Origin: Chitinophagales bacterium
GTDB lineage: Bacteria > Bacteroidota > Bacteroidia > Chitinophagales > JADIYW01
Assembly (NCBI GenBank): GCA_046329805.1
Contig: JAXLUA010000003.1
Coordinates: forward strand, 269,559 to 333,558
Length of the DNA stretch: 64,000 nucleotides
Direction of reading: 5' to 3'
Part shown: positions 3,276-57,499 of the stretch, piece by piece
Layout: each line of letters opens with the position of its first letter
Numbering within the stretch: the first letter of the stretch is position 1
Program-made: the position numbers and the translations under genes
The notes under the pieces: generated by a model
What the model saw: only the letters and a program-made list of their open reading frames with translations
Databases searched by the model: none
What the model was told of the DNA's origin: nothing

Positions 3276-3325
3276 TTTAATAAGAGCGCAAAGCTCAATA
3301 GATATTGGCTTTGCACTCTATGGTA

Positions 3326-44668: not shown

Positions 44669-44693
44669 TTATACGTTTGGATATTTAGATAAG

Positions 44694-44701
44694 CAAAAAT
44701 A
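44694..44701 (-). promoter_or_regulatory. -7 box TATTTTTG of the dcw (mraZ) promoter
   Basis: Exact TAnnTTTG on the minus strand, 25 nt before the mraZ ATG. Confidence 0.45.
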
Positions 44702-44711
44702 AAATAAAACT

Positions 44712-44736
44712 CACACAAATTCCCACTTCTTGCCAC
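44712..44736 (-). promoter_or_regulatory. Three direct pentamers at exact 10-bp spacing (GTGGC-N5-GTGGG-N5-GTGTG), candidate MraZ boxes
   Basis: Plus strand has cacac at 44712, cccac at 44722 and gccac at 44732. The array lies immediately upstream of the -7 box. Confidence 0.55.
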
Positions 44737-44982
44737 TTTTTACCATTGACACCAATGTTAACAACTCGAAAAATGTGCATATCTGCATATTTTATGTGCA
44801 TTGCCTGTGAATTAAAAGTATAAATAGGTGATTAACAAGGCTTAATTATAAACATTGGTTTATGAACGATTTGAGAATTGTAGAAAAGATTGTGTGAATT
44901 ATATCCCTAAAAACGACTCGTTGAGGGCTGAGAAGCAGTTATTTACAATAGAATATTTTTTATGAATTAAATAAAAAGATTT

Positions 44983-44995: not shown

Positions 44996-46471
44996 ATGCA
45001 ACAACATCCAATCATTTTATTAATACAGAAAGTTGAATCCTGCTATTCTAAAGATATTCAGAAATATTTTGCCATTATAAAAAAACAGCGTACTGAAAAA
45101 TTATACAAGTTACTTGCAAGTGCAAAGAACGAAGAACAATTAGGACGCTCACTTTTATTTAAAAAATTATTCGGGAAAACATACTCTGAAAAAAATGATT
45201 ATTTATGGCGCAATGAAATTCGCTTGCTAAAAGAAACTATTGAATCATTTCTAATTCAAAAACAGCATGAATATATTTCTAAGCATAACGAAGCCTATAA
45301 CCAATGGCTGTTGGTGCAGATGTATGATAAAATGAAATACCTACAAGGTGTTACAGAGCAAACTGAAATTTTATCGAAAGAAAAACATGAATATGCTTCC
45401 TATCCATTTGCATTGGATGCCCAATTAATTATGGCATTAAATCTACAACACAGCATTCCCGATGTAGCTAAACGCATGGAAGCTTTTCCTCCACATATAG
45501 AAGAAAGTATCCGCACTCTGAAAGATTTATTTGCAACATACTGCTCACGGATTAACTTATCTATTGCCTTACACAATTGGCTTTGTTACAACACACAAAC
45601 TGTAAAGCATATTGAGCCGATTACTGCTTATTTTGAAGAGATGCTTGCAGAAAACAACATGAGCACTTTTTATAATCATTTCAGTAATACATTTTCTACT
45701 GATTTTGATGTACGCATAGGCAATATCAACAAGGCAATTGAGGCAATTGAACCGATTGCACAGAAAAACAAACTGCAACAGGAGAACAATATCATCATAC
45801 AAATGGCACTCGGCAGAGAGCTTTCTGCAAATGGTCATTTCCCAAAAGCACATGAAATATTTACTAAAATAAAGAAAATCATTGATGAAGATTTTCAGCA
45901 ACACCGTACTGTCTTTTATGTAAACTATGTAACAAATTTGGTGAAAAATAGAATGTACAAAGAAGCACTTTATGTAATGGTGCATGAGTTTTCTACCGAC
46001 AATTTATTATATAAAAATATGTTGTTGCAAAATCGTTTGCTATGTTATCTTTATTTGCGTGACACATTACAGTTGGAAAAATTCATCAACTACGATTTGG
46101 ATACTGCACCGTTTCCGCAAAACTATATGTTGAAAGTGATTAAGTCAGCATACTTCTATTTAATAAAAGAATACGATACAGCAATTTCTATTATCAATAG
46201 TTTACTAAACGCAAAATACGCTGCCGATAATATGCAGTATTACCAGCCGGTTTCCAATATCTATAAGAAATTATACACTATTTCTCAAAAAAATAGTTTG
46301 CAAAAAAAGTGGTCTGATAAAGACGTAAAATCTTTATTAGATGACATTACTGAATTTGAAAAAACAAGCCCTGTCGAGTTTAAAAAAGTATCGGTTTACC
46401 TTTGGTTGAAAGAAGAAATTGAGAATAATTTAGTAGAAAAACACGTACCACGAATACATACAACAAATTGA
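44996..46471 (+). CDS. 491-aa all-helical (TPR-like) cytoplasmic protein, paralogue of 53488-54981
   Basis: No signal peptide or TM helix. Shares blocks with the paralogue along the full length: SFLIQKQ vs DILIQKR, FYVNYVTNLVKNRMYKEAL vs IFLNYATNCSKQKQFAKAI, and VYLWLKEEI vs PFLWLEQKL. Confidence 0.7.
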   Translation: MQQHPIILLIQKVESCYSKDIQKYFAIIKKQRTEKLYKLLASAKNEEQLGRSLLFKKLFGKTYSEKNDYLWRNEIRLLKETIESFLIQKQHEYISKHNEAYNQWLLVQMYDKMKYLQGVTEQTEILSKEKHEYASYPFALDAQLIMALNLQHSIPDVAKRMEAFPPHIEESIRTLKDLFATYCSRINLSIALHNWLCYNTQTVKHIEPITAYFEEMLAENNMSTFYNHFSNTFSTDFDVRIGNINKAIEAIEPIAQKNKLQQENNIIIQMALGRELSANGHFPKAHEIFTKIKKIIDEDFQQHRTVFYVNYVTNLVKNRMYKEALYVMVHEFSTDNLLYKNMLLQNRLLCYLYLRDTLQLEKFINYDLDTAPFPQNYMLKVIKSAYFYLIKEYDTAISIINSLLNAKYAADNMQYYQPVSNIYKKLYTISQKNSLQKKWSDKDVKSLLDDITEFEKTSPVEFKKVSVYLWLKEEIENNLVEKHVPRIHTTN

Positions 46472-46573
46472 TTATCAAAATCTTTTGTTTGTATTTATTT
46501 AGAATTCACTCACAAAATCCAAATATTTTAGTTGTCTTCGTTTTTTGTTTGATACAAATTTGTATTACAAAAA

Positions 46574-47425
46574 ATGATACCAATGAAAAATTTCAAATTA
46601 TTCTTTATCCTCATTATTTATTGCATTTCATTTAGTGCTTGCCAAAAAGAAAACAATGAACATGAAGGTTGGCAGTTTACAAAATTAGTTAATACCTCTT
46701 TAGATGCTGATGGCAACATGACAACGTTAGATTTCTATCAGAAAAAAGGAAACGAATGGCGTGTTGTACGCATGGAACCTGATGATTATACGAGCTTCAA
46801 TTTAAAAGAAATTATTACACCTAAGGATTATCAATTGCCTGTAACGGATAATGTAAATATTTTTATGACGTGTAATGCTAAGTTATTCAATCCGAGTACA
46901 AATTTGATACACACGCAAAATAAAATGAAATGGTTGCTTAACGACATACCGTCATTTAATTCAACTTTCTCATTTGCTAGCGGATTTCCCGATATTTCTA
47001 CTTCCTTTAATGCTATTAATAAATTTTCTGCGGCAACGTATTCTCTAGAAAAAGCCTATAATAATGATGCTCAAACAGATACTTATATTTTCTATGATTT
47101 TCCAAATCAGAAATATTTGTATTACGGAAAAAGAAGTACAACTCCATTAATTATACAAAGCAATTTACCGGATATGTGTTCTACCTGCAATCAAATTAAT
47201 TGGAAAACAATAGATGCCGTTACCAGCACCAACCAAAAAGATTTTTCATATTATTACTTTTTTGATTTTGATGCTAAGAAATTACACATCTTAGAACGTA
47301 ACGATAAAAATACCGACCATCCATCTTTTTCTTTTGATAAAGGGTTTACGTTAGATTTCAGTTATTCATTTCACAAGGAATATACTTCTCCCGACAAAGA
47401 TAAACCTTTTGATTTCAGTAAATAA
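46574..47425 (+). CDS. Hypothetical lipoprotein (283 aa)
   Basis: Lipobox ISFSAC followed by QKENNE. Confidence 0.65.
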   Translation: MIPMKNFKLFFILIIYCISFSACQKENNEHEGWQFTKLVNTSLDADGNMTTLDFYQKKGNEWRVVRMEPDDYTSFNLKEIITPKDYQLPVTDNVNIFMTCNAKLFNPSTNLIHTQNKMKWLLNDIPSFNSTFSFASGFPDISTSFNAINKFSAATYSLEKAYNNDAQTDTYIFYDFPNQKYLYYGKRSTTPLIIQSNLPDMCSTCNQINWKTIDAVTSTNQKDFSYYYFFDFDAKKLHILERNDKNTDHPSFSFDKGFTLDFSYSFHKEYTSPDKDKPFDFSK

Positions 47426-47464
47426 TTCTATCAATAAATTCATTCACAATTAAAATAACAGGAA

Positions 47465-48112
47465 ATGAAAACAATTAAAACACTGAAAAGAACAATGCTA
47501 TTTGCGTTGTTATTTGCTACACTGCTATTTACAGGTTGCAAAAAAGAGAAAACCTTTGACATCAATAAATTAGAAGGCTATTTAATTTTTGGAAAATACC
47601 CAGACCATGATTTAATGTTAATAGAATTTTTGCCCGGTAAAAAATTAAATATATATTTTACATCAGGCGGTGCTATTGCTTCTTACAAGATTATTGATGA
47701 TAAAACTATTGAGATTGATATTGACGATACGCCCAGAATTATCATTGATAATGGTAAAGTCAGTATAACTCCTAGTTTTGACATATCAGAACTTCAGCTT
47801 ATCAAAAAGCCAAGTACCAACCAATTAGAAGGAAAGACTTTTGCAGGCAAATATTACTATCCCAATGGCAACTTATTGCACCCAAAATTCTTTTATACTT
47901 TCCAAACAGGTACACAAAAAGTAGGTGTAGGTTATATCGTAGGTAGTCCTGTGCGTACCAATGATTATGAACTCATAGGCAATATCGCCGCCAGAATCCA
48001 ACCGGGAGGCGATGACAGAGAAATGGTTGTACTGGTAAACGGCAAATTAGAATCCGTATATTATAATAGTTCTTCAAATAAATATCAATATGGCACATTA
48101 GAGCAACAATAA
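47465..48112 (+). CDS. Hypothetical lipoprotein (215 aa)
   Basis: Lipobox LLFTGC followed by KKEK. Confidence 0.65.
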   Translation: MKTIKTLKRTMLFALLFATLLFTGCKKEKTFDINKLEGYLIFGKYPDHDLMLIEFLPGKKLNIYFTSGGAIASYKIIDDKTIEIDIDDTPRIIIDNGKVSITPSFDISELQLIKKPSTNQLEGKTFAGKYYYPNGNLLHPKFFYTFQTGTQKVGVGYIVGSPVRTNDYELIGNIAARIQPGGDDREMVVLVNGKLESVYYNSSSNKYQYGTLEQQ

Positions 48113-48116
48113 TTTA

Positions 48117-48267
48117 TTAAAGAGAGATTCCGCAAATGTAATCTGTCATTCCGAAATATCAGAACGACCAATAGGAGAAATCCAACAAGATAAAAGAGAT
48201 TCCTCTCTCGCCTGAGGCGAGACGGAATGACGGCTTACTACATTCGTATGACAGTTCTCTTTAAAGT
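48117..48267. repeat. REP/MITE-like nested palindromic element, family A copy 1
   Basis: ctgtcattccgaa...ggagaaatccaacaagataaaagagattcctc...cggaatgacgg, flanked by aaagagagattc and gttctctttaaagtg. Confidence 0.8.
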
Positions 48268-48291
48268 GCAAAACGATAAAAACACCGAACC

Positions 48292-48612
48292 ATGTTTATT
48301 AACAACAGAGCAAACGCTATGTGCATTCATCTAAAACCATTGGAAGATTACCTAAAAACAAAAGGTATCGCGGAAATTTATAGAGGGCAAGTTTGGTCAA
48401 AAAATTGCAGAGAATGGATTTATTACGATGCGGTATTAGATCCCAAAAGCTTAAAAGCAAAATTTCACTTTGATGATACTATTCTGATTCACGATTATGA
48501 AGATATAAAAGTAGGTTCTGAATTAGGATTAATCTGCACCATCTGCAATGATGGAATTATGGGAACACATCCAAAATCACATTATGCTCATCAAAAGAAA
48601 GTTATTCATTAA
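48292..48612 (+). CDS. Small cytoplasmic hypothetical protein (about 97-106 aa)
   Basis: Open frame with no signal peptide. The true start may be the second Met (MCIHLKP). Confidence 0.5.
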   Translation: MFINNRANAMCIHLKPLEDYLKTKGIAEIYRGQVWSKNCREWIYYDAVLDPKSLKAKFHFDDTILIHDYEDIKVGSELGLICTICNDGIMGTHPKSHYAHQKKVIH

Positions 48613-48647
48613 AAAATAAAATTATTAAACACTTAAAAACAAATTTT

Positions 48648-49718
48648 ATGCTAACATTAGAACAATACGCTTCTATTTACCTGACAATGATATCGGCAGC
48701 AGGAAACGCACAACAAGAACAAGAAATTTGCTCCTCTCACGGCTACACTTTAGCACAATGGCAAGAAGCCAAAGATTTTTATACGGCTAAAATGATGGAT
48801 CCGAATGATATGGGCAAAACTGCTATGGCATTTTCCGCTGCAATGATGCAAGGGGCAACACCTGTGCAACCGCAACAACAACAGCAAACGCTCACTCCTT
48901 CAGATTTTACAGCAAACAACATTCAAATCTACATTAGCGAATTTGATGTACAAATGGTGGAATTTCTCAACCGACAAACACAGCAGCATATCGTATTGCA
49001 ACTTGGCTTTGATGCAAAAGATGATTTTGAAAAAAAATACATCAATGGCAGAGTACATATTTCTATCAACGACCAATCGTACAGTATTTACGGAGGCGTA
49101 GAAAAAGTAGAACTCAGCAGCACAGCCGTAAAATTCATTTTTGATGAGGAAGGCAAAGCACGTATGCAATGTGGAAGTATTACAGTTTTGTACAACATCA
49201 ATGGTAAATTGTATAATTACCTGAAAAGAAAAATGCAGTTTATGTACAAGAATATTTTGAGTATAAAAGAAGAAAGTACACCAAAAGAATATGTAGTAAA
49301 TGGCATTACTTTAAATGATGAATGGGGTACATTTTCTACCGACAGCATGAAAGTAAGTATTCGACCAAACTTGCAAAACATCAAAGAAACAGGCAAATAT
49401 CCACAAGCTGTTTTTGTAGATTTTATGTCGGCAACCATTGGAAAAGACAATAATGAAATGGCATTATTAAATGAAGTGGAAGCCTGTCTGAAAGATACAC
49501 TCGAATATGATTTGGCAGCAGTAATGTTGTTTCATGTTACCGATAATGAAAAGCGAAGATTTTTTATTTATACAGGTTTGAGTCAAAAAGATTTTATGAC
49601 ACGTATCAATGAAGCATTTCGTTTATTGCCACAATTACCATTAAATTTTTCCGGCGGCGAAGATGCTGCTTGGGCAAACTATGCCGGTTGTTTGGGCGAT
49701 TATAATTTATATAAATAG
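48648..49718 (+). CDS. Cytoplasmic hypothetical protein, 356 aa, two-domain with a poly-Q linker
   Basis: Helical N-domain (LTLEQYASIYL...), then a QPQQQQQ linker, then an alpha/beta C-terminal half. No signal peptide. Resemblance of the C-terminal part to DUF695/RraB-type immunity-like folds is only an impression. Confidence 0.6.
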   Translation: MLTLEQYASIYLTMISAAGNAQQEQEICSSHGYTLAQWQEAKDFYTAKMMDPNDMGKTAMAFSAAMMQGATPVQPQQQQQTLTPSDFTANNIQIYISEFDVQMVEFLNRQTQQHIVLQLGFDAKDDFEKKYINGRVHISINDQSYSIYGGVEKVELSSTAVKFIFDEEGKARMQCGSITVLYNINGKLYNYLKRKMQFMYKNILSIKEESTPKEYVVNGITLNDEWGTFSTDSMKVSIRPNLQNIKETGKYPQAVFVDFMSATIGKDNNEMALLNEVEACLKDTLEYDLAAVMLFHVTDNEKRRFFIYTGLSQKDFMTRINEAFRLLPQLPLNFSGGEDAAWANYAGCLGDYNLYK

Positions 49719-49726
49719 TTGACGGC

Positions 49727-49912
49727 TGTTTGTTCACAGTGAACAGTGAACAGTGAACTAAAAACTAAAAGTGAGTGCGTCATTTCGAACGAGGAACGAG
49801 TGAGAAATCCCGACGAGTTTGGGTAAAGTTATTTTCATATCTAGATACCTCCTAACGTCGGCATGACGACTCGCATTTATAGACAAAATCCGGTGAACCG
49901 TCATCGAACAAA
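49727..49912. repeat. Composite repeat zone: CAGTGAA x3 (49737-49757) plus family-A-related palindromic units
   Basis: gcgtcatttcgaacgaggaacgagtgagaaatcc, cgtcggcatgacgactcg, gaaccgtcatcgaac. Confidence 0.65.
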
Positions 49913-49923
49913 AAATAAAAAAA

Positions 49924-50370
49924 ATGGATAAAAAAATAATCAATAAAGATACAGGCGAGCTTTGTTTTGATAATGGTTTTGTTGTTTCTAAGAATACAAC
50001 ATTAGAAGAACTTCTTAGACATTTCGGAAAAGATAAAATTACAAAGTCAGAATACAATCGCAATGTGTACATTCTTCAACAACAAAAGCTGGGGAAGTAT
50101 TACTTAAAATTCTATTTCTACTTTGGCAAACAACACCTAAATAAAATTGAATTTGAAGTAGAAACAAAACCAATAGAACGCATTCCTTGGAGCAGCAACC
50201 GAGATGTGGAAACACGCTGGATTGCCCGACAACTAGACGATAAAAGCAATTTCAAATGGGACATGAATAAGGCAGGAAGGCATTATCATTTGCAGTACGA
50301 TTGGGGTAGTATAGGAGTTTATTACGATTTTAAAAATGGAACGTTCAGTAGTGTTTTAGTATATAAATAG
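49924..50370 (+). CDS. Small cytoplasmic hypothetical protein (148 aa)
   Basis: Open frame with no signal peptide and no motif I recognise. Confidence 0.55.
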   Translation: MDKKIINKDTGELCFDNGFVVSKNTTLEELLRHFGKDKITKSEYNRNVYILQQQKLGKYYLKFYFYFGKQHLNKIEFEVETKPIERIPWSSNRDVETRWIARQLDDKSNFKWDMNKAGRHYHLQYDWGSIGVYYDFKNGTFSSVLVYK

Positions 50371-50517
50371 TTTAAAAAAGAGAGTCTGCTGAATAATTAA
50401 TTAAATGATTATCAACAACATACAACATATAAAATAAAATCAAACATCACAAATCGATAAAATCTCTGTTGCTCTCAATAATAAAATCAAACAACTTTGT
50501 TTTATAAAAATAAAACT

Positions 50518-50895
50518 ATGAAAAACACATTGCCGCTCGCTTTCTTATTGCTTTTTTTCACAGCAAGAGCAGAAGATAACAACACCATCAAAACCAACGC
50601 CACCTGCACCTTAGGTCAGGAAAGAATTATCAAAGAATTGAAAAAATTAGATGGTGTGTTTGATGTAAAAATAGACAATAAAGGAACGATTACTTTAGAT
50701 TACAGTTCAGATGGAACACCTTATAACGAACTTGTCAAAAAAGTAACCGAATGTGGATTTACCGCAAACGGCATTGAACCAAAAAATGGCGATAAAGATT
50801 TATGCAAATCATCATCTAAAAGTGCCGACCGTCATTTCGACCAACGGGAGAAATCCCAACAAGTTAAAAAAGATTCCTCACTACGTTCGGAATGA
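50518..50895 (+). CDS. Secreted HMA-fold-like protein lacking the CxxC metal site. Its C-terminal 25 codons are encoded by a REP element.
   Basis: Signal peptide MKNTLPLAFLLLFFTARA. A ferredoxin-like pattern ATCTLGQERIIKELKKLDGVFDVKID...GTITLDY...LVKKVTECGF has a single Cys where MxCxxC is expected. ATG 50518 is preferred over TTG 50497. A CAACTTTG box sits at 50492-50499. Confidence 0.55.
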   Translation: MKNTLPLAFLLLFFTARAEDNNTIKTNATCTLGQERIIKELKKLDGVFDVKIDNKGTITLDYSSDGTPYNELVKKVTECGFTANGIEPKNGDKDLCKSSSKSADRHFDQREKSQQVKKDSSLRSE

Positions 50896-50896
50896 C
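50829..50896. repeat. REP family A copy 3, overlapping the 3' end of the CDS above
   Basis: ccgtcatttcgaccaacgggagaaatcccaacaagttaaaaaagattcctcactacgttcggaatgac. Confidence 0.8.
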
Positions 50897-50980
50897 AACA
50901 GCGAAGTAATCTTGAGATTGTTTGCTTCTCGCTCAATAACGGCAAGAAAAATAAATTATTAACTACAAAAAAATTAAATC

Positions 50981-52096
50981 ATGAACAAAATTATTTTATT
51001 AATTACAATGGCACTCTTATTAGCAGTTGCTTGTAATAAAGAAGACAAGAAAGTAAATCCGACTCCCGGCGTAGCCCAATTTTCTTCTGGTGGCGGACAT
51101 ACTATGCTGCTAAAAACAGACGGTACGCTATATGGCACTGGGTGGAACGATCGTGGTTTTCTGGGAATAGGTAGTGCTACCAATCCTAATAAGTGGGTAA
51201 AAGTTTTAGATGGTGTAAAATCTGTTACCGCAGGTTACCAAGAAACGTTTATCATTAAAAATGATAATACCGTTTGGGCAACAGGACGTAATTTGTCCGG
51301 TAATTTGGGCGATGGCACTAAAGATATGAGAACTTCTTTTGTAAAGGTTGCGGATAACGGCAAAGCCGTTTTTGCATGTCGTTACAACACTTTTATTCTT
51401 AAAAATGATAATTCACTTTGGGCAACAGGCAAAAATGAAGATGGAATGTTAGGCATTGGTGCAACACCTGCCGAAACAAGCACTTTTGTAAAAGTAACGG
51501 ACAATGTAAAATCTGTAGCCGTGGGAACTTGGCATACACTTATTTTGAAAACAAATGGTACTGTATGGGCTGTTGGGTTTAATAATGGTGGACGATTAGG
51601 CGATGGCACTTATGTAACTAAAACAGAATTAGTAAAAGTTGCTGATAATATAACAGCAGTTGCGGCAGGATATAGTTATAGTCTGTTACTTAAAAACGAT
51701 AAAACAGTTTGGGCTTGCGGGTGGAACGATGTAGGGCAATTCGGCATTACCACCTCAGACCTTGGGGTACCAACATTTATCAAAGTAGCAGAAAATGTTA
51801 ACTATATTGCAGCAGGCGTACATAGTGAATACAGTGTTATCATAAAAACAGACAATACACTCTGGGTTACGGGGTCGAACGGTTACGGACAATTAGCCAC
51901 AGGAAATACTAATACTCTACTTACTTGGGTAAAAGCAGCAGACAATGTAAAAGCAATGAGTGCCGGTACAGCACATCTTACTATCCAAAAAACAGACGGC
52001 ACACTATGGGCAGCCGGTGCAAATGATGCTTCTCAGTTAGGCACAGATGAAGCTACTGCCCCAAAAACCTCTTTTGTAAAAGTCGTTATTCCTTAA
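50981..52096 (+). CDS. RCC1-repeat (7-blade beta-propeller) lipoprotein
   Basis: Lipobox LLAVAC followed by NKEDKK. Seven repeats of the type AGxxHTLxLKTDGTLWAxGxNxxGQLGxG. Confidence 0.85.
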   Translation: MNKIILLITMALLLAVACNKEDKKVNPTPGVAQFSSGGGHTMLLKTDGTLYGTGWNDRGFLGIGSATNPNKWVKVLDGVKSVTAGYQETFIIKNDNTVWATGRNLSGNLGDGTKDMRTSFVKVADNGKAVFACRYNTFILKNDNSLWATGKNEDGMLGIGATPAETSTFVKVTDNVKSVAVGTWHTLILKTNGTVWAVGFNNGGRLGDGTYVTKTELVKVADNITAVAAGYSYSLLLKNDKTVWACGWNDVGQFGITTSDLGVPTFIKVAENVNYIAAGVHSEYSVIIKTDNTLWVTGSNGYGQLATGNTNTLLTWVKAADNVKAMSAGTAHLTIQKTDGTLWAAGANDASQLGTDEATAPKTSFVKVVIP

Positions 52097-52157
52097 TTAT
52101 TCATCCTGAAATATAAAACAGAGAAAATAAATTAATGCACAAAAAAAATCACAGAAA

Positions 52158-52763
52158 ATGAAAGCAAAACTTCACAAACTCAAAAAATTACTTTCTAATT
52201 TATTGAGTAAAAAAACAATCATTATTTTTTACATAACAAGTTTTCTTTTCTTGTCGTGCAATAATAGCAAAAGTAAAAGCACTACGGTAGAAGATGTTAT
52301 TCAGAAAGCCAAAGAAACAACGGCAGTCGTAGCCAAAGAAGGACGTGGGAATATTAGTTTGCAATGCAGTGGAAAAACTTACGAAATCAACGGCGTATGT
52401 GGTGCATTAACCAGTATGGGCAGTGTTTCCATTGTCGTTAAAGACGATAGCACCAAGCTAAAAGTATTTACTATTGATTTCTCAACCGACCAGTTGCCAA
52501 CCTCTTCCTCTTCTTACAAAATTATAAAAAATGCTGACGATAAAGATGCCCATTACGTATCCATAGGCTACAACGACATGCGACAACCACAAATGATTTG
52601 GGAATCGGACAATGCCACCGGAAAATTAGATTTTACAGTAAATGGCGATGAAATAAAATGCTCGTTTTCCAACTTGAAATTACAAGCAAACGAATTTTTC
52701 AATAAAGGTGAACTAAATAATCCGGCTATAGTTTCCGGCGAACTAACATTGTATAAAAATTAA
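52158..52763 (+). CDS. Hypothetical lipoprotein (201 aa)
   Basis: Lipobox FLFLSC followed by NNSKSK. Confidence 0.6.
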   Translation: MKAKLHKLKKLLSNLLSKKTIIIFYITSFLFLSCNNSKSKSTTVEDVIQKAKETTAVVAKEGRGNISLQCSGKTYEINGVCGALTSMGSVSIVVKDDSTKLKVFTIDFSTDQLPTSSSSYKIIKNADDKDAHYVSIGYNDMRQPQMIWESDNATGKLDFTVNGDEIKCSFSNLKLQANEFFNKGELNNPAIVSGELTLYKN

Positions 52764-52860
52764 AAAAGAGAATCTAAAATGCGAGCCGTCTTTTCGAGCG
52801 AGGTACGAGTGAGTTTCGAACGTTCGGAATGACGGTTCTCATTAAAGTGTGAGATTCAAT
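52762..52860. repeat. REP family A copy 4
   Basis: aaaaagagaatct...gccgtcttttcgagcgaggtacgagtgagtttcgaacgttcggaatgacggttctcattaaagtgtgagattc. The flanks match copy 1. Confidence 0.8.
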
Positions 52861-52900
52861 AACGACAAAAAAATTAATAACTTGCTAAAAAACAAAAAGA

Positions 52901-53311
52901 ATGAACAGAATTATTTTATTATTTGCAATGACAATCTTGTTAGCGATTGGCTGCAAAAAAGACAAAGTACAAACAGAGTTACCTGCCAACTACACTAATC
53001 AAGGTACTATCACAGTTGCCAAGAAAAACATTTCTATCTGCATTTATGATAACAGCGTAGAAGATGGCGATATTGTTGATTTAATATTTAACGGGAAAGC
53101 ATTGGTAACAAATTATGAATTGAAAAACGCAGAAAAATGCTTCAATGTTACTTTAGAAAACGGCAATAATTGGATTGGCATTATTGCTAAAAATGAAGGC
53201 ACAAATCCTCCGGCATCTGTTACCGTCAAAATAAATGATGGTGTAAGTGAACAGTCATTCGACATTGATGGAGAAATAGACCATCCGGGTGGTTACATCA
53301 TTAAACTATAA
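52901..53311 (+). CDS. Hypothetical small lipoprotein (136 aa)
   Basis: Lipobox LLAIGC followed by KKDK. The signal peptide closely resembles that of the RCC1 lipoprotein. Confidence 0.6.
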   Translation: MNRIILLFAMTILLAIGCKKDKVQTELPANYTNQGTITVAKKNISICIYDNSVEDGDIVDLIFNGKALVTNYELKNAEKCFNVTLENGNNWIGIIAKNEGTNPPASVTVKINDGVSEQSFDIDGEIDHPGGYIIKL

Positions 53312-53412
53312 GAAGAATTTTTATTCAATAATATCTGTCTTTGGTAGAATGTAAAATAGATTGATAGCTGATATTGAGTATTGCCTGTTTTTACTCATTT
53401 TTCATTTTTTGT

Positions 53413-53440
53413 AAGCGAAGCCTTGCGGCTTCGCTTTTTT
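53413..53440 (+). terminator. Rho-independent terminator
   Basis: aagcgaagcc ttgc ggcttcgctt followed by tttt. Confidence 0.8.
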
Positions 53441-53442
53441 AT

Positions 53443-53472
53443 AAAAAAAATCCGAAACAGTTTGTTTCGGAT
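53443..53472 (-). terminator. Rho-independent terminator for the convergent gene 53488-54981
   Basis: Minus strand: atccgaaaca aac tgtttcggat followed by a T8 run. Confidence 0.75.
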
Positions 53473-53487
53473 TCTATTCTATCATTC

Positions 53488-54981
53488 TCAGTGCTGTGGT
53501 AGGAGTTTTTGTTCTAACCAAAGAAACGGGGAATAATGTCTTAAATATGGAAATTGTTGGATATTGAGTGCTGCTTTCACTTTTTCATATCGTTGTACTT
53601 GCGCCGGCGTTAGCTTTATTTTTCCATTTTTAAAAACCGCAGCTATCATAAAGTTCATCAATTCTGTTGCCGGAATAAAATTGACATCTATTTCCTGCAT
53701 CAACTTGGAACGCAACAGATTGGTTATTTCGGAATGGGCAAACTCAAATTCATTTTCCATCAAAAAAGCGTTGCATTGACACAGTCGGAAATAAATTTTT
53801 TCGTGCGGTTGTATTAAATTATAATCTTGGCTATTCACTAAGGCATGAATGGCTGGCGCATTTTCCATAAAAAGATAACAACTCAAACTGCGTATGGCGC
53901 ATTCTGTTTTTAATTTTGAATCTCTTGCGGCTTCTTCTTCCAATAAATGTATTAACTCAATCGCTTTAGCAAATTGTTTTTGCTTGCTGCAATTCGTTGC
54001 ATAATTAAGGAAGATAGTTTTATAATTCAGATACTGTTCTTTGGGGATTATTATTATGGCTTGTTCAAAATATTTATTTCCATTTTTAAAATCTCCGAGT
54101 ATAGAATAGCGCGTGCCGATAAGATGAAGTGCCTTTGCTTTATAATGCAAGAAGCGCGGATGATAATTAACCAAAATGGTTGCCAGCCGGACGGTTTCTT
54201 CGTAAATGTGCAATGAAATATCCGTTGCCGGGCTGTCGATTTTCAGGTAGGCAATGCCGTTAAGTATAATCAATTTAGCTTCTTCATTTACAAATTCATC
54301 TGCAATTTTCAATACTTCTTCTACAACAATTTCTTCGAAAAAAGTATTTGTAAGTTGCTTGTGATAATAATTATGCATGCACTTTAAATACCACGATTTT
54401 GCCTGCCGTATTTCTGCTTCTTGCTGAGAATTTTGCAAATAATTTTTTGTAATCACTCCCATTAGCCGCTCTTTTTCTTTGAGTGGCAAATGGCTTTTCA
54501 TCAAATAGTCTGCATATTTATCGTTTATCCTATTTTTGCCGGAAAATGAATATGAAACAGCAGTCGAAATTTCGTTGTACACGTACTCGGCTTCTTTAAA
54601 TAATTTTAAATCGAGGTACAAATTTATTCTTTCTTCTTGCTGCCATTCTTCATCATTTTTTATTTGCGCTTTCCAACGTTTTTGTATCAGTATGTCTTCA
54701 ATAAAATCTGCTAAGCGACTTTGATCTGTGCGAAAAATGGCATCGCCTTTGGGTGTCCATTTTTTTTTATACACTCTTAAATATATTTCTTCACGGTTAA
54801 ATGGTGTTTGTATTAGCAGATGGATTGCGGTAAATAATGGCAGATACATTTTATTTTGCTGCGCCTTTATTTGGGTTTTAACAAAATCAATATCTGAGCT
54901 TGACAATGCGTGAATAAGTTGAACAAGACGTATTTCTTTCATACCATTTGGAAAAATACAATTTAATAGTAAATATTCCAA
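53488..54981 (-). CDS. 497-aa all-helical (TPR-like) cytoplasmic protein, paralogue of 44996-46471
   Basis: See 44996-46471. Transcribed divergently from the GH5 cassette. Confidence 0.7.
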   Translation of the reverse strand: MEYLLLNCIFPNGMKEIRLVQLIHALSSSDIDFVKTQIKAQQNKMYLPLFTAIHLLIQTPFNREEIYLRVYKKKWTPKGDAIFRTDQSRLADFIEDILIQKRWKAQIKNDEEWQQEERINLYLDLKLFKEAEYVYNEISTAVSYSFSGKNRINDKYADYLMKSHLPLKEKERLMGVITKNYLQNSQQEAEIRQAKSWYLKCMHNYYHKQLTNTFFEEIVVEEVLKIADEFVNEEAKLIILNGIAYLKIDSPATDISLHIYEETVRLATILVNYHPRFLHYKAKALHLIGTRYSILGDFKNGNKYFEQAIIIIPKEQYLNYKTIFLNYATNCSKQKQFAKAIELIHLLEEEAARDSKLKTECAIRSLSCYLFMENAPAIHALVNSQDYNLIQPHEKIYFRLCQCNAFLMENEFEFAHSEITNLLRSKLMQEIDVNFIPATELMNFMIAAVFKNGKIKLTPAQVQRYEKVKAALNIQQFPYLRHYSPFLWLEQKLLPQH

Positions 54982-55049
54982 AGTCCGTTTTGGTGTTATT
55001 CACCAAAACATAAACTAAAGATTGTTGGAAAAGAATTCCAACAATGACG
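54981..55049 (+). repeat. Double-hairpin repeat family B, copy 1
   Basis: aagtccgttttggtgttattcaccaaaacataaactaaagattgttggaaaagaattccaacaatgacg, with two internal hairpins: gttttggtg/caccaaaac and attgttggaa/ttccaacaat. Confidence 0.85.
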
Positions 55050-55295
55050 AAGTATTTAATATCTTATCGGTAGAAAATAATTCCCGAATACTCAGTCAAA
55101 GTGTCCGTTTGCTCAATAGCCGCACTTGCTCCATCAAAAAACAATACAACTCTAATTAATTAACTATCAAGTAATTACAGTTAATTTCAACATACTGCTT
55201 GCTGCAAAAACACAATTCTTGTATTGATAGATTTTTGTCCGCAGACTACTTTTACAATAGAGAAAACGTAATTTATTCACACTAAAACAACCTCT

Positions 55296-56369
55296 ATGAA
55301 ACGTATTCAATCATTAATTTCTATTGCGGTATTGTTGTTATTCACCGCATGCACGCCTACTAATATTGCTCCTACAGGGGGCGGTACAAATAACACAACA
55401 TCGGGGACAACACCTACAAGAACAACCACAGCCACAATTACCGTAAAAGGAAGCCACATCATAACTTCTTGCGGGGATACCATTGTACTAAAGGGCGTAA
55501 ACTATGCGGCGTATAGTTGGGGCTGGAACAATAACGAAAATCTATTCCCGGAGATTGCAAAAAGTGGTGCCAATGCCGTGCGCATCGTTTGGTATAAAAC
55601 CAATTCCGGACCGGCATATAGCAATATGGCTTTATTGGATTCTGCTCTTGCTCGTTGTATTAAAAACAAGATGATTCCGATACTTGAACTGCACGACGAA
55701 ACGTGCAATAATAATAGTACTTCGATGATAGCAACGGCGAATTGGTACACACAAACAGCCGTAAAAAATATCCTGATAAAATATCAAAAATGGATAATCA
55801 TCAATCCGTTAAATGAAGCAGGGTATGTACTCTGGAATGGCAACAATGCAACGGCATTAAACACTTTTAAAACTACCTATAAAACCATTATTACCAACTT
55901 GCGAAATGCAGGGTTAAACATGCCATTACTATTAGATGCTAGTGATTGTGGGCAACACTTAAATGTATGGAAAACCATAAGCACGGAAATGCAAACATAC
56001 GATCCAAAGCACAATTTAATTTTCAGTGCCCATGCTTATTGGAGTTCGTATGCAGGTACAGCAGCAGCAATTACTACGCTGTTGCAAGATGCATCCACTT
56101 GGAACGTACCAATAGTGTTGGGTGAAGTAGCCAACAAACAAGATGACAATAATGGAAATTGTACGCTACCATTAGACCTATCTACTACATTACAAAAATG
56201 CGAACAATACAAAATTGGTTGGTTAGCCTGGGTATGGACGGCGGATAACTGCGGTAGCAGACAAATGACAACAAACGGCAATTTTAACGCTCTTACATCT
56301 TATGGAAATCAATTGATAAATACTTCGCCTTATGGGTTAAAATTTGCCAAACGGCCCGACTGTTTCTAA
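55296..56369 (+). CDS. GH5-family glycoside hydrolase lipoprotein (beta-mannanase-like)
   Basis: Lipobox LLFTAC plus a Thr-rich linker. GH5 signature order: LKGVNY, ILELHDETC, INPLNEAG (acid/base Glu), FSAHAYW, VLGEVAN (nucleophile Glu), GWLAWVW. Confidence 0.8.
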   Translation: MKRIQSLISIAVLLLFTACTPTNIAPTGGGTNNTTSGTTPTRTTTATITVKGSHIITSCGDTIVLKGVNYAAYSWGWNNNENLFPEIAKSGANAVRIVWYKTNSGPAYSNMALLDSALARCIKNKMIPILELHDETCNNNSTSMIATANWYTQTAVKNILIKYQKWIIINPLNEAGYVLWNGNNATALNTFKTTYKTIITNLRNAGLNMPLLLDASDCGQHLNVWKTISTEMQTYDPKHNLIFSAHAYWSSYAGTAAAITTLLQDASTWNVPIVLGEVANKQDDNNGNCTLPLDLSTTLQKCEQYKIGWLAWVWTADNCGSRQMTTNGNFNALTSYGNQLINTSPYGLKFAKRPDCF

Positions 56370-56399
56370 CCGCATTTTATAAATAACAAAACTAATTTC

Positions 56400-56861
56400 A
56401 TGAAAACAAACAAAATCAACAAAACAATTAGCATTATCCTTGCTGCATTTCTTTTTATTTCGTTTTCGGCTTGTAAAAAAGACAACTTAGCCACTGGTGG
56501 CGGGTATATCGAATACACCGTTGATGGGAAAACTTACCAACAAACCGATGCTGTAAGTGCCGTATTTATTGGCGGGAAATTTCAGGGATTATCCGATGGA
56601 AATTTAGATGCAAAAATTGGGGATAGCCAAGATATTAGCATTATCATCGGCACTGCGTACAGCCCTATGAAATTAATTTTTAGAATTGATGGGGTTTCCT
56701 ATGGTAATCTTGGGAACACGTCGAAAGCAAAAGTAACCTTTACCAAGAACGAAACTAATTTATTAGAAGGTACATTTGAAGGAATTATTAAAGAAGATAT
56801 AGGAAAACCGGCAAAAACGATAAGCGGGAAATTTAGCATAAAATCAATTACAAGAATCTAA
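56400..56861 (+). CDS. Small lipoprotein (153 aa), paralogue of 56875-57354
   Basis: Lipobox ISFSAC followed by KKDN. Shares YIEYTVDGKTY and VTFTK...LEGTFEG...ISGKF with its neighbour. Confidence 0.65.
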   Translation: MKTNKINKTISIILAAFLFISFSACKKDNLATGGGYIEYTVDGKTYQQTDAVSAVFIGGKFQGLSDGNLDAKIGDSQDISIIIGTAYSPMKLIFRIDGVSYGNLGNTSKAKVTFTKNETNLLEGTFEGIIKEDIGKPAKTISGKFSIKSITRI

Positions 56862-56874
56862 AAAAATATCAATT

Positions 56875-57354
56875 ATGAAAAAGATAGTATATAGCACATT
56901 ACTTTTGTTATTTAGTATAGCAATTAGTGCCTGCAAAAAAGAGTGTAAAGTATGCCCAACTTGTAGTAATTACGAATACATTGAATACACTATGGATGGA
57001 AAAACGTATAAGATAGATACAGGAGTTACTGCTTTATTTAATTCCGCCAATTTTGTAAAACTAAGCGCAAATAATGGTACTGCGACAATGGCACCTCATC
57101 TATTAGGTTATACTGGAATACCTATTAATGAAGGAGATAGTAATGGAAACTTTGACTTTAGATTTAAGACAGCTGATGGCTATTACATTTCAATCTTAGC
57201 ACAAAATACTTCTGTTACATTTACAAAAATAGGAGATACTATGCTGGAAGGAACTTTTGAAGGAAAGGTGAAATCGGAAAATGGCGGAGAAAGTCCATTC
57301 AAAACAATTACCGGGAAATTTTATACTACCCACATTATAAATCTTGGTGGGTAA
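56875..57354 (+). CDS. Small lipoprotein (159 aa), paralogue of 56400-56861
   Basis: Lipobox IAISAC followed by KKEC; YIEYTMDGKTY, VTFTK...LEGTFEG...ITGKF. Confidence 0.65.
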   Translation: MKKIVYSTLLLLFSIAISACKKECKVCPTCSNYEYIEYTMDGKTYKIDTGVTALFNSANFVKLSANNGTATMAPHLLGYTGIPINEGDSNGNFDFRFKTADGYYISILAQNTSVTFTKIGDTMLEGTFEGKVKSENGGESPFKTITGKFYTTHIINLGG

Positions 57355-57364
57355 CTACTTTCCG

Positions 57365-57456
57365 AAGTCCGTTTTGGTGTTCTTCACCAAAACATAAACT
57401 AAAGATTGTTGGAAAAGAATTCCAACAATGGCGGTAGAAAGGAATTCCAACAATGG
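57365..57456 (+). repeat. Double-hairpin repeat family B, copy 2, plus an extra partial unit
   Basis: 57365-57433 matches 54981-55049 with 2 mismatches. It is followed by gtagaaaggaattccaacaatggcg. A further ttccaacaat fragment is at 59259-59268. Confidence 0.85.
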
Positions 57457-57461
57457 CGAGC

Positions 57462-57499
57462 AAAAATAAAAAAGCCCGAAGAAATACTTCGAGCTTTTT
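57462..57499. terminator. Bidirectional terminator hairpin between the lipoprotein cassette and the helicase gene
   Basis: A-run, then gcccgaag aaata cttcgagc (1 mismatch), then T5. Confidence 0.6.

What the first reader, a model, noticed from the sequence alone, without database searches (positions are those of the whole stretch)
44996..57456. 12.5-kb repeat-punctuated lipoprotein island between mraZ and the DEAD-box helicase
Two deeply conserved housekeeping blocks (dcw ending at 44668, helicase from 57520) enclose 14 ORFs. Only the GH5 enzyme and the RCC1 propeller have a recognisable family. Nine ORFs carry lipoboxes, three are small cytoplasmic orphans, and two are inverted paralogous ~490-aa helical proteins. 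Nearly every intergenic gap holds a palindromic repeat from one of two families. I saw no integrase, transposase or tRNA, so this is not a classical island. My inference is a cassette-like surface-lipoprotein locus assembled by repeat-mediated recombination and controlled by the helical paralogues. This is the best candidate in the window for an undescribed system.
Basis: partly seen in the sequence, partly recalled or inferred. Interest (0 to 1): 0.7.

Follow-up and report, generated by a model that had tools for sequence, protein, structure and literature searches.

The report
Lineage-specific lipoprotein cluster, not an island
The stretch between mraZ and the helicase is an inherited, fast-evolving cluster of lipoprotein genes headed by proteins of an undescribed helical family in uncultured wastewater Chitinophagales, and its palindromic repeats are late hitch-hikers rather than what built it.

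Summary
The 14 ORFs are real, but several details are off. There are eight lipoboxes, not nine. Palindromic repeats sit in 6 of 15 gaps, not nearly all. Four proteins match a known family, not two: GH5 mannanase-like, RCC1, HMA and Imm10+DUF695.

The interval is not a foreign island. GC3 and codon usage match the other genes in the window. I found no tRNA and no family match to an integrase or transposase. Fourteen assemblies of this species show one gene order.

Related Chitinophagales genomes carry the same cluster, mostly between mraZ and the helicase. It starts with a ~480-aa TPR-like protein (p491), followed by lipoprotein genes plus two conserved cytoplasmic proteins (p106, p356). A second module (paralogue p497, GH5 lipoprotein and two small lipoproteins) is absent or on the mraZ side in relatives. 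Here it lies between the old terminator and the helicase.

The repeats are REP/MITE-like. They are missing from relatives, one has an empty site in a ~90%-identical relative, and further copies lie elsewhere.

The helical proteins belong to a large unnamed family (663 representative clusters). No DNA-binding fold was detected in them. Function remains inferred. The finding is modestly interesting.

The parts
44669..44900 (-). Conserved mraZ upstream region. It lies outside the variable cluster and contains three GTG(G/T)G boxes at 10-nt spacing (44710-44745).
   Evidence: It is 74-81% nt identical in 10 related loci whatever gene follows it. The boxes are conserved in six relatives.
44996..46471 (+). 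p491: a cytoplasmic ~480-aa TPR-like alpha-solenoid and head gene of module A. It belongs to an unnamed family with an invariant DYLWRNE-R-L motif.
   Evidence: The family has 66 clusters, all annotated 'hypothetical' and with no Pfam hit. The AF2 model has pLDDT 90 and is all helix. Foldseek gives only generic TPR hits (E >= 0.011). The superfamily has 663 representative clusters.
46574..47425 (+). p283: a lipoprotein and the conserved partner directly after p491.
   Evidence: It has a lipobox. Homologues at 45-59% identity follow p491 in 12 loci. It has no Pfam or PDB match.
47465..48112 (+). p215: a lipoprotein found only in this species among the loci examined.
   Evidence: It has a lipobox. 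No related locus gives a tblastn hit. A weak profile link to the p153 family exists.
48145..48232 (.). E1: a palindromic REP/MITE-like element bounded by GTCATTCCGA...CGGAATGACG.
   Evidence: Logan contigs break here, and loose ends show other flanks.
48292..48612 (+). p106: a conserved small cytoplasmic protein (real start Met10, 97 aa) with invariant C11, H13, C39, C82, C85 and H93.
   Evidence: The alignment covers 9 homologues at 58-81% identity. It co-occurs with p491 in three chromosomal contexts. It has no Pfam or PDB match.
48648..49718 (+). p356: a conserved cytoplasmic protein with an N-terminal helical region, Imm10 and DUF695.
   Evidence: Pfam gives Imm10 at 33.5 bits (cut-off 28.6) and DUF695 at 31.8 bits (cut-off 23.1). 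Imm10 matches 7 of 7 homologues and DUF695 6 of 7. Homologues are 65-80% identical.
49779..49870 (.). E2: a palindromic element lying in a 201-nt gap that is an insertion.
   Evidence: An abundant ~90%-identical relative joins p356 to p148 through 18 nt in place of 49718-49918.
49924..50370 (+). p148: a small cytoplasmic protein of unknown family.
   Evidence: It has no signal peptide. Homologues occur in L097 and L098 at 61-62% identity. No family hit.
50518..50895 (+). p132: a secreted HMA-like protein with an SPI signal and no CxxC motif. The repeat E3 supplies its last ~22 residues.
   Evidence: Pfam HMA at 29.7 bits. Tail comparison with five homologues.
50831..50896 (.). E3: a palindromic element overlapping the 3' end of p132.
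50981..52096 (+). p371: an RCC1-repeat beta-propeller lipoprotein found only in this species among the loci examined.
   Evidence: Pfam WD40_RLD E 8.6e-58 and RCC1_2 E 5e-42. It has a lipobox. No homologue in related loci.
52158..52763 (+). p201: a lipoprotein recurrent in relatives.
   Evidence: It has a lipobox. Homologues at 49-58% identity occur in 7 loci. No PDB match.
52788..52834 (.). E4: a palindromic element.
52901..53311 (+). p136: a lipoprotein and the last gene of module A. In relatives it is the gene next to the helicase.
   Evidence: It has a lipobox. Homologues at 69-71% identity occur in L001, L088, L097 and L098.
53394..53475 (.). Back-to-back intrinsic terminators. The first is the ancestral array/helicase terminator and the second ends p497.
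   Evidence: Terminator scan. Fold z-score -7. The 53394-53460 hairpin is homologous to the DNA that lies beside the helicase stop codon in 8 related loci.
53488..54942 (-). p497 (484 aa from Met14): a paralogue of p491, transcribed divergently from the GH5 gene. It is the head of module B.
   Evidence: It sits next to mraZ in L003, L109 and L114.
54976..55049 (.). R74 copy 1: a double-hairpin repeat ~35 nt upstream of the p497 start and ~250 nt upstream of p357.
   Evidence: Fold z-score -4.9.
55296..56369 (+). p357: a GH5 beta-mannanase-like lipoprotein with a Thr/Gly-rich linker.
   Evidence: PDB 1wky E 3.5e-26, 3jug, 2whj and 1bqc. The NE and GE motifs are aligned. It is 81-91% identical in relatives.
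56400..57354 (+). p153 and p159: two paralogous small lipoproteins (35% identical).
   Evidence: The family extends to ~150-aa lipoproteins in L082, L087 and L088. No Pfam or PDB match.
57360..57459 (.). R74 copy 2 (57360-57433) plus a partial third hairpin (57437-57459).
   Evidence: Hairpin 2 also occurs with foreign flanks in five runs.
57469..57499 (-). Present terminator of the helicase gene.

Best explanation
**What it is.** The interval is a vertically inherited accessory gene cluster of a clade of uncultured Chitinophagales from activated sludge. It is lineage-specific and fast-evolving. It is not a mobile island.

**Module A (44996-53311).**
- It is a co-directional, probably operon-like array.
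- The head gene p491 encodes a cytoplasmic TPR-like solenoid.
- Lipoprotein genes follow it, with p106 (Cys/His-rich) and p356 (Imm10+DUF695) interspersed.
- It ends at an intrinsic terminator that in relatives abuts the helicase gene.

**Module B (53447-57460).**
- It consists of the paralogue p497, transcribed divergently from a GH5 mannanase-like lipoprotein gene, and two small paralogous lipoprotein genes.
- Relatives lack it or carry it on the mraZ side.
- In this species it sits between the old terminator and the helicase.

**How content changes.** Between species, content changes by gene gain, loss, tandem duplication and block relocation.

**The repeats.** The palindromic repeats are REP/MITE-like elements. 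They entered the non-essential intergenic gaps in this species only.

**Likely function (inferred, not shown).**
- The products are envelope or surface lipoproteins.
- One of them cleaves mannan-type glycans.
- The rest are binding or structural proteins of unknown specificity.
- The TPR-like proteins act through protein-protein contacts, as regulator, adaptor or chaperone for their neighbouring secreted proteins.
For: **Synteny**
- 25 or more related loci carry subsets of the same families in the same interval. The commonest order is mraZ, p497, p357-p153(-p159), p491-p283-(p132)-p106-p356...p201...p148-p136, helicase.
- The cluster p491 + lipoproteins + p106 (+p356) is also found intact at two other chromosomal sites, L081 and L082.

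**Vertical inheritance**
- GC3 is 0.305 against 0.316 +/- 0.05 for 38 other window genes, and codon distance is in the same range.
- The window has no tRNA. No ORF matches an integrase or transposase family.
- Gene order is identical in 10 contigs from different samples and in runs from 4 studies.

**Module B relocation**
- The terminator at 53394-53460 is homologous to the one lying beside the helicase in 8 relatives.

**Repeats are late**
- They are absent from related loci.
- E2 has an 18-nt empty site in a ~90%-identical relative.
- E3 supplies the tail of p132.
- Extra copies with other flanks exist, and contigs break at the repeats.

**Proteins**
- Eight have lipoboxes.
- p357 is GH5 mannanase-like.
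- p371 is RCC1.
- p491 is modelled as an all-helical solenoid with pLDDT 90.

**Transcription**
- Faint traces of p132, p371, p497 and p357 appear in one metatranscriptome.
Against: - No function has been tested, and ten of the 14 proteins have no characterised relative.
- The operon structure is inferred only from gene orientation, short gaps, one terminator and one promoter-like -7 box.
- The RNA evidence is a few low-depth contigs and could be DNA carry-over.
- The route by which module B moved is unknown.
- The two R74 copies flank only p357-p159. I cannot say whether that is coincidence or a trace of the rearrangement.
- Within the 64-kb window the repeats occur only in this interval (0 of ~9 other large gaps). 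Their genome-wide spread therefore rests on loose ends of metagenome contigs, not on a complete genome.
Confidence: 0.62

Rival explanations
1. One reading: a cassette-like surface-lipoprotein locus. Cassettes are shuffled in and out by recombination at the intergenic palindromic repeats. The helical paralogues control expression.
For: - Content differs between species.
- The repeats are concentrated in this interval within the window.
- Near-identical 74-nt direct repeats flank p357-p153-p159.
- One low-depth contig in run X27 joins copy 2 back to copy 1.
- p136 and p371 share a similar signal-peptide coding stretch.
Against: - Relatives with equally variable content have no such repeats.
- The repeats do not bound the units that differ between species.
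- E2 is a simple insertion relative to a close relative.
- No strain-level variation appears in 14 assemblies.
- No recombinase gene was detected in the interval.
- No DNA-binding fold was found in p491.
- The X27 joint runs through 48 identical bases, more than the assembler's word length. It may be an assembly path.
Confidence: 0.08
2. An orphan-immunity array, analogous to acquired interbacterial defence clusters. Small lipoproteins would neutralise periplasm-acting toxins. The cytoplasmic proteins p356, p106 and p148 would neutralise cytoplasm-acting toxins from competitors in sludge flocs.
For: - p356 carries an Imm10 domain above Pfam's threshold in all 7 homologues.
- The genes are small, co-directional and mostly orphan.
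- They evolve fast, at 45-70% identity against 85-96% for the flanking genes.
- Tandem paralogue expansion is seen in L081.
- The layout resembles rAID-1 clusters as described in 10.1101/471110.
Against: - Only 1 of 14 proteins matches an immunity family.
- There is no XerD-like recombinase, no GC skew and no mobile-element context, all of which define rAID-1.
- PADLOC found nothing.
- A GH5 enzyme and an RCC1 propeller are not immunity-like.
- p106 and p356 are strongly conserved and syntenic across genera. This pattern suggests a housekeeping-type role rather than arms-race turnover.
- No toxin or secretion-system gene lies nearby.
Confidence: 0.12
3. The TPR-like proteins are ligand- or peptide-sensing regulators that switch their neighbouring secreted-protein genes. 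They would work like the RRNPP receptors of Firmicutes, but in Bacteroidota.
For: - The best Foldseek hits of the p491 model include Rap (6t46) and NprR (5dbk, 4gpk).
- Family members sit at the head of, or divergent from, genes for lipoproteins or T9SS cargo in every context examined.
- The paralogue pair p491/p497 each pairs with its own module.
Against: - The fold matches are weak (E >= 0.011, TM <= 0.37 on the query) and typical of any TPR solenoid.
- The N-terminal 135 residues match no DNA-binding or other known fold (best E 3.7).
- No HTH was found by Pfam or NCBIfam.
- No candidate peptide gene was identified.
- Secreted proteins are very common in Bacteroidota, so the neighbourhood signal is weak for distant members.
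Confidence: 0.15
4. A horizontally acquired genomic island inserted between two housekeeping blocks.
For: - It lies between conserved blocks.
- Most of its genes are orphans.
- Its GC is slightly lower (0.347 against 0.371).
Against: - The GC difference is within one standard deviation, and GC3 is equal.
- The same interval holds the same core families in several genera.
- The window has no tRNA, and no integrase match or direct repeats bounding the interval were found.
- Another part of the window (1678-4579, GC 0.28-0.30) looks more foreign than this one.
Confidence: 0.03

Closest known systems
REP / REPIN and MITE-type palindromic repeats (PMC3116915, PMC3337134)
   Same: - The E elements (terminal inverted GTCATTCCGA...TCGGAATGAC, 47-92 nt) and the R74 double hairpin are short, extragenic and hairpin-forming.
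- They are present in several copies and lie in non-essential gaps.
- Each is absent from the homologous site in relatives, as expected of non-autonomous mobile repeats.
   Different: - No RAYT or other transposase is in the window.
- Copy number in the genome is unknown.
- Rfam has no matching family.
- A Y1-transposase-like gene lies 2 kb beyond the helicase in two relatives. Those relatives lack the repeats in this interval.
rAID-1 recombinase-associated orphan-immunity arrays of Bacteroidales (10.1101/471110)
   Same: - A head gene is followed by many small co-directional genes of mostly unknown function.
- Repetitive sequences lie between them.
- At least one gene carries an immunity-family domain.
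- Content differs between species.
   Different: - The head gene is a TPR-like protein, not a XerD-like recombinase.
- There is no GC skew.
- The repeats are not shared between species.
- The cluster is chromosomal and syntenic across genera.
- Most products are lipoproteins without immunity-family matches.
GH5 subfamily of bacterial endo-beta-1,4-mannanases (solved structures 1wky, 3jug, 2whj, 1bqc)
   Same: p357 aligns over ~300 residues with these enzymes. The acid/base NE motif and the nucleophile GE motif fall in register.
   Different: - p357 is lipid-anchored through a lipobox and has a Thr/Gly-rich linker.
- It has no carbohydrate-binding module.
- It scores below Pfam's Cellulase model (no hit at E <= 0.01).
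- Its activity is untested.
TPR-type scaffold and receptor proteins (LapB, Rap/NprR, LGN)
   Same: p491 and p497 are predicted all-alpha solenoids. Their best structural neighbours are TPR proteins, and there are weak TPR_2/TPR_12 and LapB sequence hits.
   Different: - No hit reaches a family threshold.
- The conserved N-terminal motif DYLWRNE-R-L has no counterpart in these families.
- The family has a fixed length of ~480 aa and no fused domains.

Membership tests
Classical genomic island | Integrase or transposase gene, tRNA or direct-repeat boundaries | tested here: not met
   The window has no tRNA. No ORF matches such a family. No direct repeats bound the interval.
Classical genomic island | Composition deviating from the host genome | tested here: not met
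   GC3 is 0.305 against 0.316 +/- 0.05. Codon-usage distance lies within the range of the other window genes.
Classical genomic island | Presence or absence polymorphism among close strains | tested here: not met
   Gene order is the same in 10 contigs from different samples and in runs of 4 studies.
rAID-1 orphan-immunity array | 5' XerD-like tyrosine recombinase | tested here: not met
   The head gene p491 is a TPR-like protein with no recombinase match.
rAID-1 orphan-immunity array | Two or more co-directional downstream genes with skewed low GC | tested here: inconclusive
   The genes are co-directional. There is no GC skew relative to the genome.
rAID-1 orphan-immunity array | Genes matching toxin-immunity families | tested here: inconclusive
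   Only p356 matches (Imm10, 33.5 bits against a cut-off of 28.6). The other 13 have none.
Integron | IntI integrase and attC sites after each cassette | tested here: not met
   There is no integrase. The repeats lie in 6 of 15 gaps, are of two unrelated kinds, and are absent in relatives.
REP / REPIN-type repeats | Short extragenic imperfect palindromes that fold as hairpins | tested here: met
   Fold z-scores range from -1.5 to -4.9. Terminal inverted repeats were identified.
REP / REPIN-type repeats | Many dispersed copies in the genome | tested here: inconclusive
   The window holds 4 E elements and 2.3 R74 copies, all in this interval. Loose ends and contig breaks show further copies with other flanks. 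No whole genome was available.
REP / REPIN-type repeats | Cognate RAYT (Y1 transposase) gene in the genome | not testable with these tools
   There is none in the 64-kb window. Y1_Tnp-like genes lie near the helicase in L087 and L088.
Glycoside hydrolase family 5 (p357) | Sequence similarity to GH5 catalytic domains with conserved NE acid/base and E nucleophile | tested here: met
   Eight solved GH5 mannanases/endoglucanases match at E 3.5e-26 to 7e-21. NE and GE are aligned. Pfam's Cellulase model gave no hit at E <= 0.01.
RCC1-like beta-propeller (p371) | Repeated RCC1 blades | tested here: met
   WD40_RLD 196.8 bits (cut-off 150). RCC1_2 matches five stretches.
Canonical TPR proteins (p491, p497) | Match to TPR repeat models above threshold | tested here: not met
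   p497 scores 20.5 bits on TPR_2 (cut-off 27) and 20.0 on TPR_12 (cut-off 30.1). p491 has no hit. The fold is TPR-like only.
RRNPP peptide-sensing regulators | TPR sensor joined to an N-terminal HTH or three-helix effector domain, with an adjacent propeptide gene | tested here: not met
   The N-terminal 135 residues match no known fold (best E 3.7). No HTH was found by Pfam or NCBIfam. No peptide gene was identified. Whole-protein matches to Rap and NprR are weak (E 0.011-0.044).
Anti-phage defence systems (PADLOC) | Match to a defence-system protein model | tested here: not met
   No significant hit for the ten proteins tested.

The most novel reading that the evidence does not exclude
The ~480-aa DYLWRNE-motif TPR-like proteins form an undescribed family, probably Bacteroidota-wide. 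It has 663 representative clusters at 50% identity and no Pfam model. In this reading they are dedicated cytoplasmic partners of adjacent secreted-protein genes, acting as sensors/regulators or as export adaptors. In this Chitinophagales clade they would form a functional unit with a Cys/His-rich 97-aa protein (p106) and an Imm10-DUF695 protein (p356) that governs a rapidly diversifying set of surface lipoproteins.
Probability: 0.15. Interest if true: 0.6.

Novelty: new variant of a known kind. Interest (0 to 1): 0.33.

Why it matters
The practical result is a corrected annotation. The interval is a native, clade-specific lipoprotein cluster plus REP/MITE-like insertions. It is not an island and not a recombination-driven cassette system.

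Two things remain worth knowing:
- A large, uniform and unnamed family of ~480-aa helical proteins repeatedly sits beside genes for secreted proteins.
- In one abundant wastewater lineage this family is locked together with two conserved cytoplasmic proteins and a changing set of lipoproteins.

If that link is functional, it would give a handle on how these uncultured floc bacteria build or regulate their cell surface. The locus also offers a clean natural example of palindromic repeats invading a dispensable region. It includes an empty site in a close relative and a gene whose 3' end was rewritten.

Tried and rejected
- **Rfam** on the interval with relaxed thresholds: three chance-level hits only.
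- **NCBIfam and PADLOC:** NCBIfam gave nothing above threshold for any of the 14 proteins. PADLOC gave nothing significant for the ten tested.
- **PDB profile searches** for the p283, p106, p356, p153/p159 and p201 families: nothing credible.
- **Pfam on all family members individually:** only Imm10 and DUF695 for p356.
- **Foldseek of the full p491 model and of its N-terminal domain:** generic TPR hits or nothing.
- **A profile search meant to reach named relatives of p491/p497:** it returned the same unnamed proteins. Cluster look-ups gave no names.
- **Literature search for Imm10/DUF695:** nothing relevant.
- **Profile-profile comparison among the lipoprotein families:** mostly signal-peptide matches. 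The only longer ones were p153-p215, p153-x185 and p136-'TRLK' at 90-91% probability. That is too weak to claim common origin.
- **Strict Bacteroidetes promoter pattern:** no more frequent than chance.
- **Second structure job:** I considered folding p283 or p106 but could not supply an alignment the tool would accept. I used the job on the p491 N-terminus instead.
- **R74 repeats as the route of module B's relocation:** rejected, because the repeats flank only p357-p159 and not p497.

Full report
**What is in the sequence**

I name them by length. On the plus strand are p491, p283, p215, p106, p356, p148, p132, p371, p201 and p136. Then comes p497 on the minus strand, followed by p357, p153 and p159 on the plus strand.

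Eight have a lipoprotein signal ending in a lipobox Cys: p283, p215, p371, p201, p136, p357, p153 and p159. p132 has a signal-peptidase-I type signal instead. p106, p356, p148, p491 and p497 have no signal peptide.

- p371 is an RCC1 propeller, p132 an HMA-like domain, and p356 carries Imm10 and DUF695 above Pfam's cut-offs.
- p357 has no Pfam hit. It matches solved GH5 beta-mannanases (1wky E 3.5e-26 and seven others) with the NE and GE catalytic motifs in register.
- NCBIfam gave nothing above threshold for any of the 14, and PADLOC nothing significant for the ten proteins tested.
- p491 and p497 are distant paralogues. They share 25% identity in two collinear segments (E 3e-6) and align over their full length at family level.
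- The only other paralogy is p153/p159 at 35%.

**The repeats**

Only three repeat pairs exist in the whole 64-kb window.
- A 74-nt double hairpin (R74) lies at 54976-55049 and 57360-57433 at 97% identity, with a partial third hairpin at 57437-57459.
- Two pairs belong to one kind of element bounded by GTCATTYCGA...TCGGAATGAC. These are E1 48145-48232, E2 49779-49870, E3 50831-50896 and E4 52788-52834.

All of them fold as hairpins and are far above chance. They occupy 6 of 15 gaps. A seventh gap holds ordinary back-to-back terminators, and eight gaps hold nothing. About nine other gaps of 240-810 nt in the window have none of these repeats. Rfam has no match.

**Where it comes from and whether it is foreign**

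The helicase's nearest relatives are uncultured Chitinophagales at 81-85% identity. The runs that hold the sequence are wastewater and activated-sludge metagenomes from at least eight studies.

GC3 of the 14 genes is 0.305, against 0.316 +/- 0.05 for 38 other genes of the window. Codon-usage distances overlap. The window has no tRNA, and no ORF matches an integrase or transposase family.

Ten contigs from different samples that encode the identical p106 all have the same 14 genes in the same order. So do Logan contigs of four runs from four studies.

**Comparison with relatives**

tblastn of the 14 proteins against about 40 related loci gives a clear picture. The commonest arrangement is:

mraZ | p497 (same strand as mraZ) | p357 p153 (p159) | p491 p283 (p132) p106 p356 ... 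p201 ... p148 p136 | helicase.

- Some species lack the p497-p357-p153 block altogether (L001, L088, L108, L098, L092, L087).
- One species has a thioredoxin-ApbE-DUF4266-DUF3570 block added next to mraZ (L087).
- p215 and p371 were found only in the window's species.
- In two more distant genomes the cluster p491 + lipoproteins + p106 (+p356, p132, p201) lies at quite different chromosomal sites (L081, L082).
- In all these loci the genes after the p491 homologue are almost all lipobox proteins.
- L081 has tandemly duplicated lipoprotein paralogues.

Cluster proteins are 45-70% identical between these species. The exceptions are the GH5 enzyme (81-91%), p356 (65-80%) and p132 (68-81%). In the same loci mraZ is up to 96% identical, rsmH 86-88% and the helicase 80-87%. 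The interval is therefore an old, clade-specific cluster that evolves quickly. It has a stable core (p491, p283, p106, p356) and a changing periphery.

**The rearrangement in this species**

- The first ~220 nt upstream of mraZ are 74-81% identical at DNA level in ten relatives, whatever gene follows.
- The hairpin terminator at 53394-53460, just after p136, is homologous to the sequence that lies directly beside the helicase stop codon in eight relatives.
- The segment 53447-57460 therefore sits between the ancestral terminator and the helicase. It comprises the p497 terminator, p497, R74, p357, p153, p159 and R74. The helicase now uses another terminator (57469-57499).

I could not establish how the block moved. 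The R74 copies flank only p357-p159, not p497, so a single crossover at R74 does not explain the order.

**The repeats are late arrivals**

Four observations support this.
1. Neither repeat is found in any related locus, and the relatives' intervals contain no comparable palindromes.
2. In runs X26 and X27 a much more abundant relative (about 89-94% nt identity over p356 and p148) joins p356 to p148 through 18 nt. The window has the 201-nt E2-bearing gap at that place.
3. E3 overlaps the end of p132 and encodes its last ~22 residues. Five homologues end soon after the conserved ...GDK(D/N)LCK.
4. Logan contigs break at the repeats. Loose ends with the same foreign flanks in five runs show at least one further copy of R74 hairpin 2, and further copies of the E elements, elsewhere.

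This is the behaviour of REP/REPIN- or MITE-type elements (PMC3116915, PMC3337134). It is not the behaviour of recombination sites that built the cluster. No RAYT gene is in the window, and genome-wide copy number could not be measured.

**The helical proteins**

The p491 family has 66 clusters at 90% identity and the p497 family has 21. All are annotated 'hypothetical' and none has a Pfam domain. A profile of both families finds 663 representative clusters at 50% identity (342 at E <= 1e-10). Nearly all are 460-510 aa and match end to end, so there are no domain fusions to give a hint. None of the ten I looked up carries a name.

The AlphaFold model is confident (pLDDT 90, pTM 0.81) and entirely helical. 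Foldseek against the PDB gives only TPR-type scaffolds at E >= 0.011 and TM <= 0.37 on the query. Rap and NprR are among them, but so are APC/C subunits, LGN and TTC7B. The N-terminal 135 residues carry the invariant K-D-LWRNE-R-LK motif. They model well (pLDDT 87) but match nothing (best E 3.7). There is thus no evidence for a DNA-binding domain, and a regulatory role remains a guess.

Remote family members lie beside genes for large secreted or T9SS-sorted proteins (L083, L089, L118/L130, L119). This fits a link with secreted proteins. Without a background rate, however, it is weak evidence.

**The conserved cytoplasmic pair**

p106 probably starts at Met10 (97 aa). It has invariant C11, H13, C39, C82, C85 and H93, which suggests metal binding. 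p356 keeps Imm10 in 7 of 7 homologues and DUF695 in 6 of 7. Neither has a solved relative.

Their conservation is as high as or higher than that of p491, and they travel with p491 to other chromosomal sites. This argues that they belong to one functional unit. The Imm10 domain keeps an immunity-array reading alive. However, the defining features of rAID-1 clusters (recombinase, GC skew, mobile context) are absent, and 13 of 14 proteins match no immunity family.

**Expression**

The only RNA evidence is a handful of low-depth contigs in one aquatic metatranscriptome. They cover parts of p132, p371, p497, p357 and the helicase.

One Bacteroidetes-type -7 box (TAAATTTG) lies just upstream of p491, and none lies in the internal plus-strand gaps. 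The only plus-strand intrinsic terminator lies after p136. This fits one long transcription unit for module A, but it is inference.

**Verdict**

The interval is a native, clade-specific, two-module lipoprotein cluster that has been invaded by palindromic repeats in this species. I rate it a new variant of a known kind, namely a variable, lineage-specific envelope-protein cluster carrying REP/MITE-like insertions. The unnamed ~480-aa helical family and its conserved partners p106 and p356 are the only part that deserves follow-up.

Noticed in passing
window 44710-44745: Read on the mraZ strand, three GTG(G/T)G boxes lie at 10-nt spacing (AAAGTGGCAA GAAGTGGGAA TTTGTGTGAG), about 40-75 nt upstream of mraZ. 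They are conserved in six related loci. From memory of the family, they look like an MraZ operator.
   Followed up: partly
window 50818-50895: The last ~22 residues of p132 are encoded by the palindromic element E3. Homologues end shortly after the conserved GDK(D/N)LCK. A repeat insertion has rewritten the gene's 3' end.
   Followed up: yes
window 49718-49918 (runs X26, X27): A far more abundant ~90%-identical relative in two runs has p356 and p148 separated by 18 nt (AAAGAAGAATTTAGAACT) instead of this 201-nt gap. The same contig diverges from the window before 48647 and after 50369, so its neighbouring genes differ.
   Followed up: partly
window 54999 / 57382 (run X27): One low-depth contig (3.4x) runs from the end of p159 back to the R74 copy upstream of p357 ('goes back 2384'). 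It could be a circle or tandem duplicate of the R74-flanked unit. It could also be an assembly path through 48 identical bases. It was not seen in the other six runs examined (X1, X5, X7, X11, X25, X26).
   Followed up: no
window 53441 / 57695 (run X1): One contig at about half the local depth joins 53441 (terminator region after p136) to 57695 (inside the helicase 3' part), skipping 4253 nt. Only 41 letters lie on the shorter side. It may be a co-resident relative without module B, or a chance match.
   Followed up: no
window 1678-4579: Three adjacent minus-strand genes (265, 266 and 417 aa) have GC 0.28-0.30 and GC3 0.20-0.26, the lowest in the window. None has a Pfam hit, and all have secretion-type N-termini (the 417-aa one has a lipobox). 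By composition this region looks more foreign than the finding.
   Followed up: partly
window 34970-35434: A 154-aa low-GC (0.277) lipoprotein-like ORF without a Pfam hit sits inside the dcw cell-division cluster. It overlaps the next gene by 17 nt.
   Followed up: no
window 49739-49757: A short tandem (GTGAACA repeated, within CACAGTGAACAGTGAACAGTGAAC) lies at the start of the E2-bearing gap.
   Followed up: no
L087 19597-20157; L088 19493-20053: A 186-aa gene with a weak Y1-transposase (PF01797) hit lies next to radC, about 2 kb beyond the helicase, in two relatives. The window has a T9SS cargo gene (59751-62909, GEVED + Por_Secre_tail) at that side and no such gene.
   Followed up: partly
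L081 16800-21455: A more distant relative carries a run of at least seven tandemly duplicated lipoprotein genes after its p491 cluster. Their signal-peptide coding stretches are 70-87% identical. This shows that arrays grow by tandem duplication.
   Followed up: partly
L087 7130-9948: In one relative a thioredoxin-ApbE-DUF4266-DUF3570 block is inserted between mraZ and the p491 homologue. The mraZ side of the interval therefore also accepts insertions.
   Followed up: no
L118 8304-11479; L130 8001-11158: Distant members of the p491/p497 family occur as tandem paralogue pairs, divergent from genes for 830-950-aa secreted proteins and a T9SS-sorted protein.
   Followed up: partly
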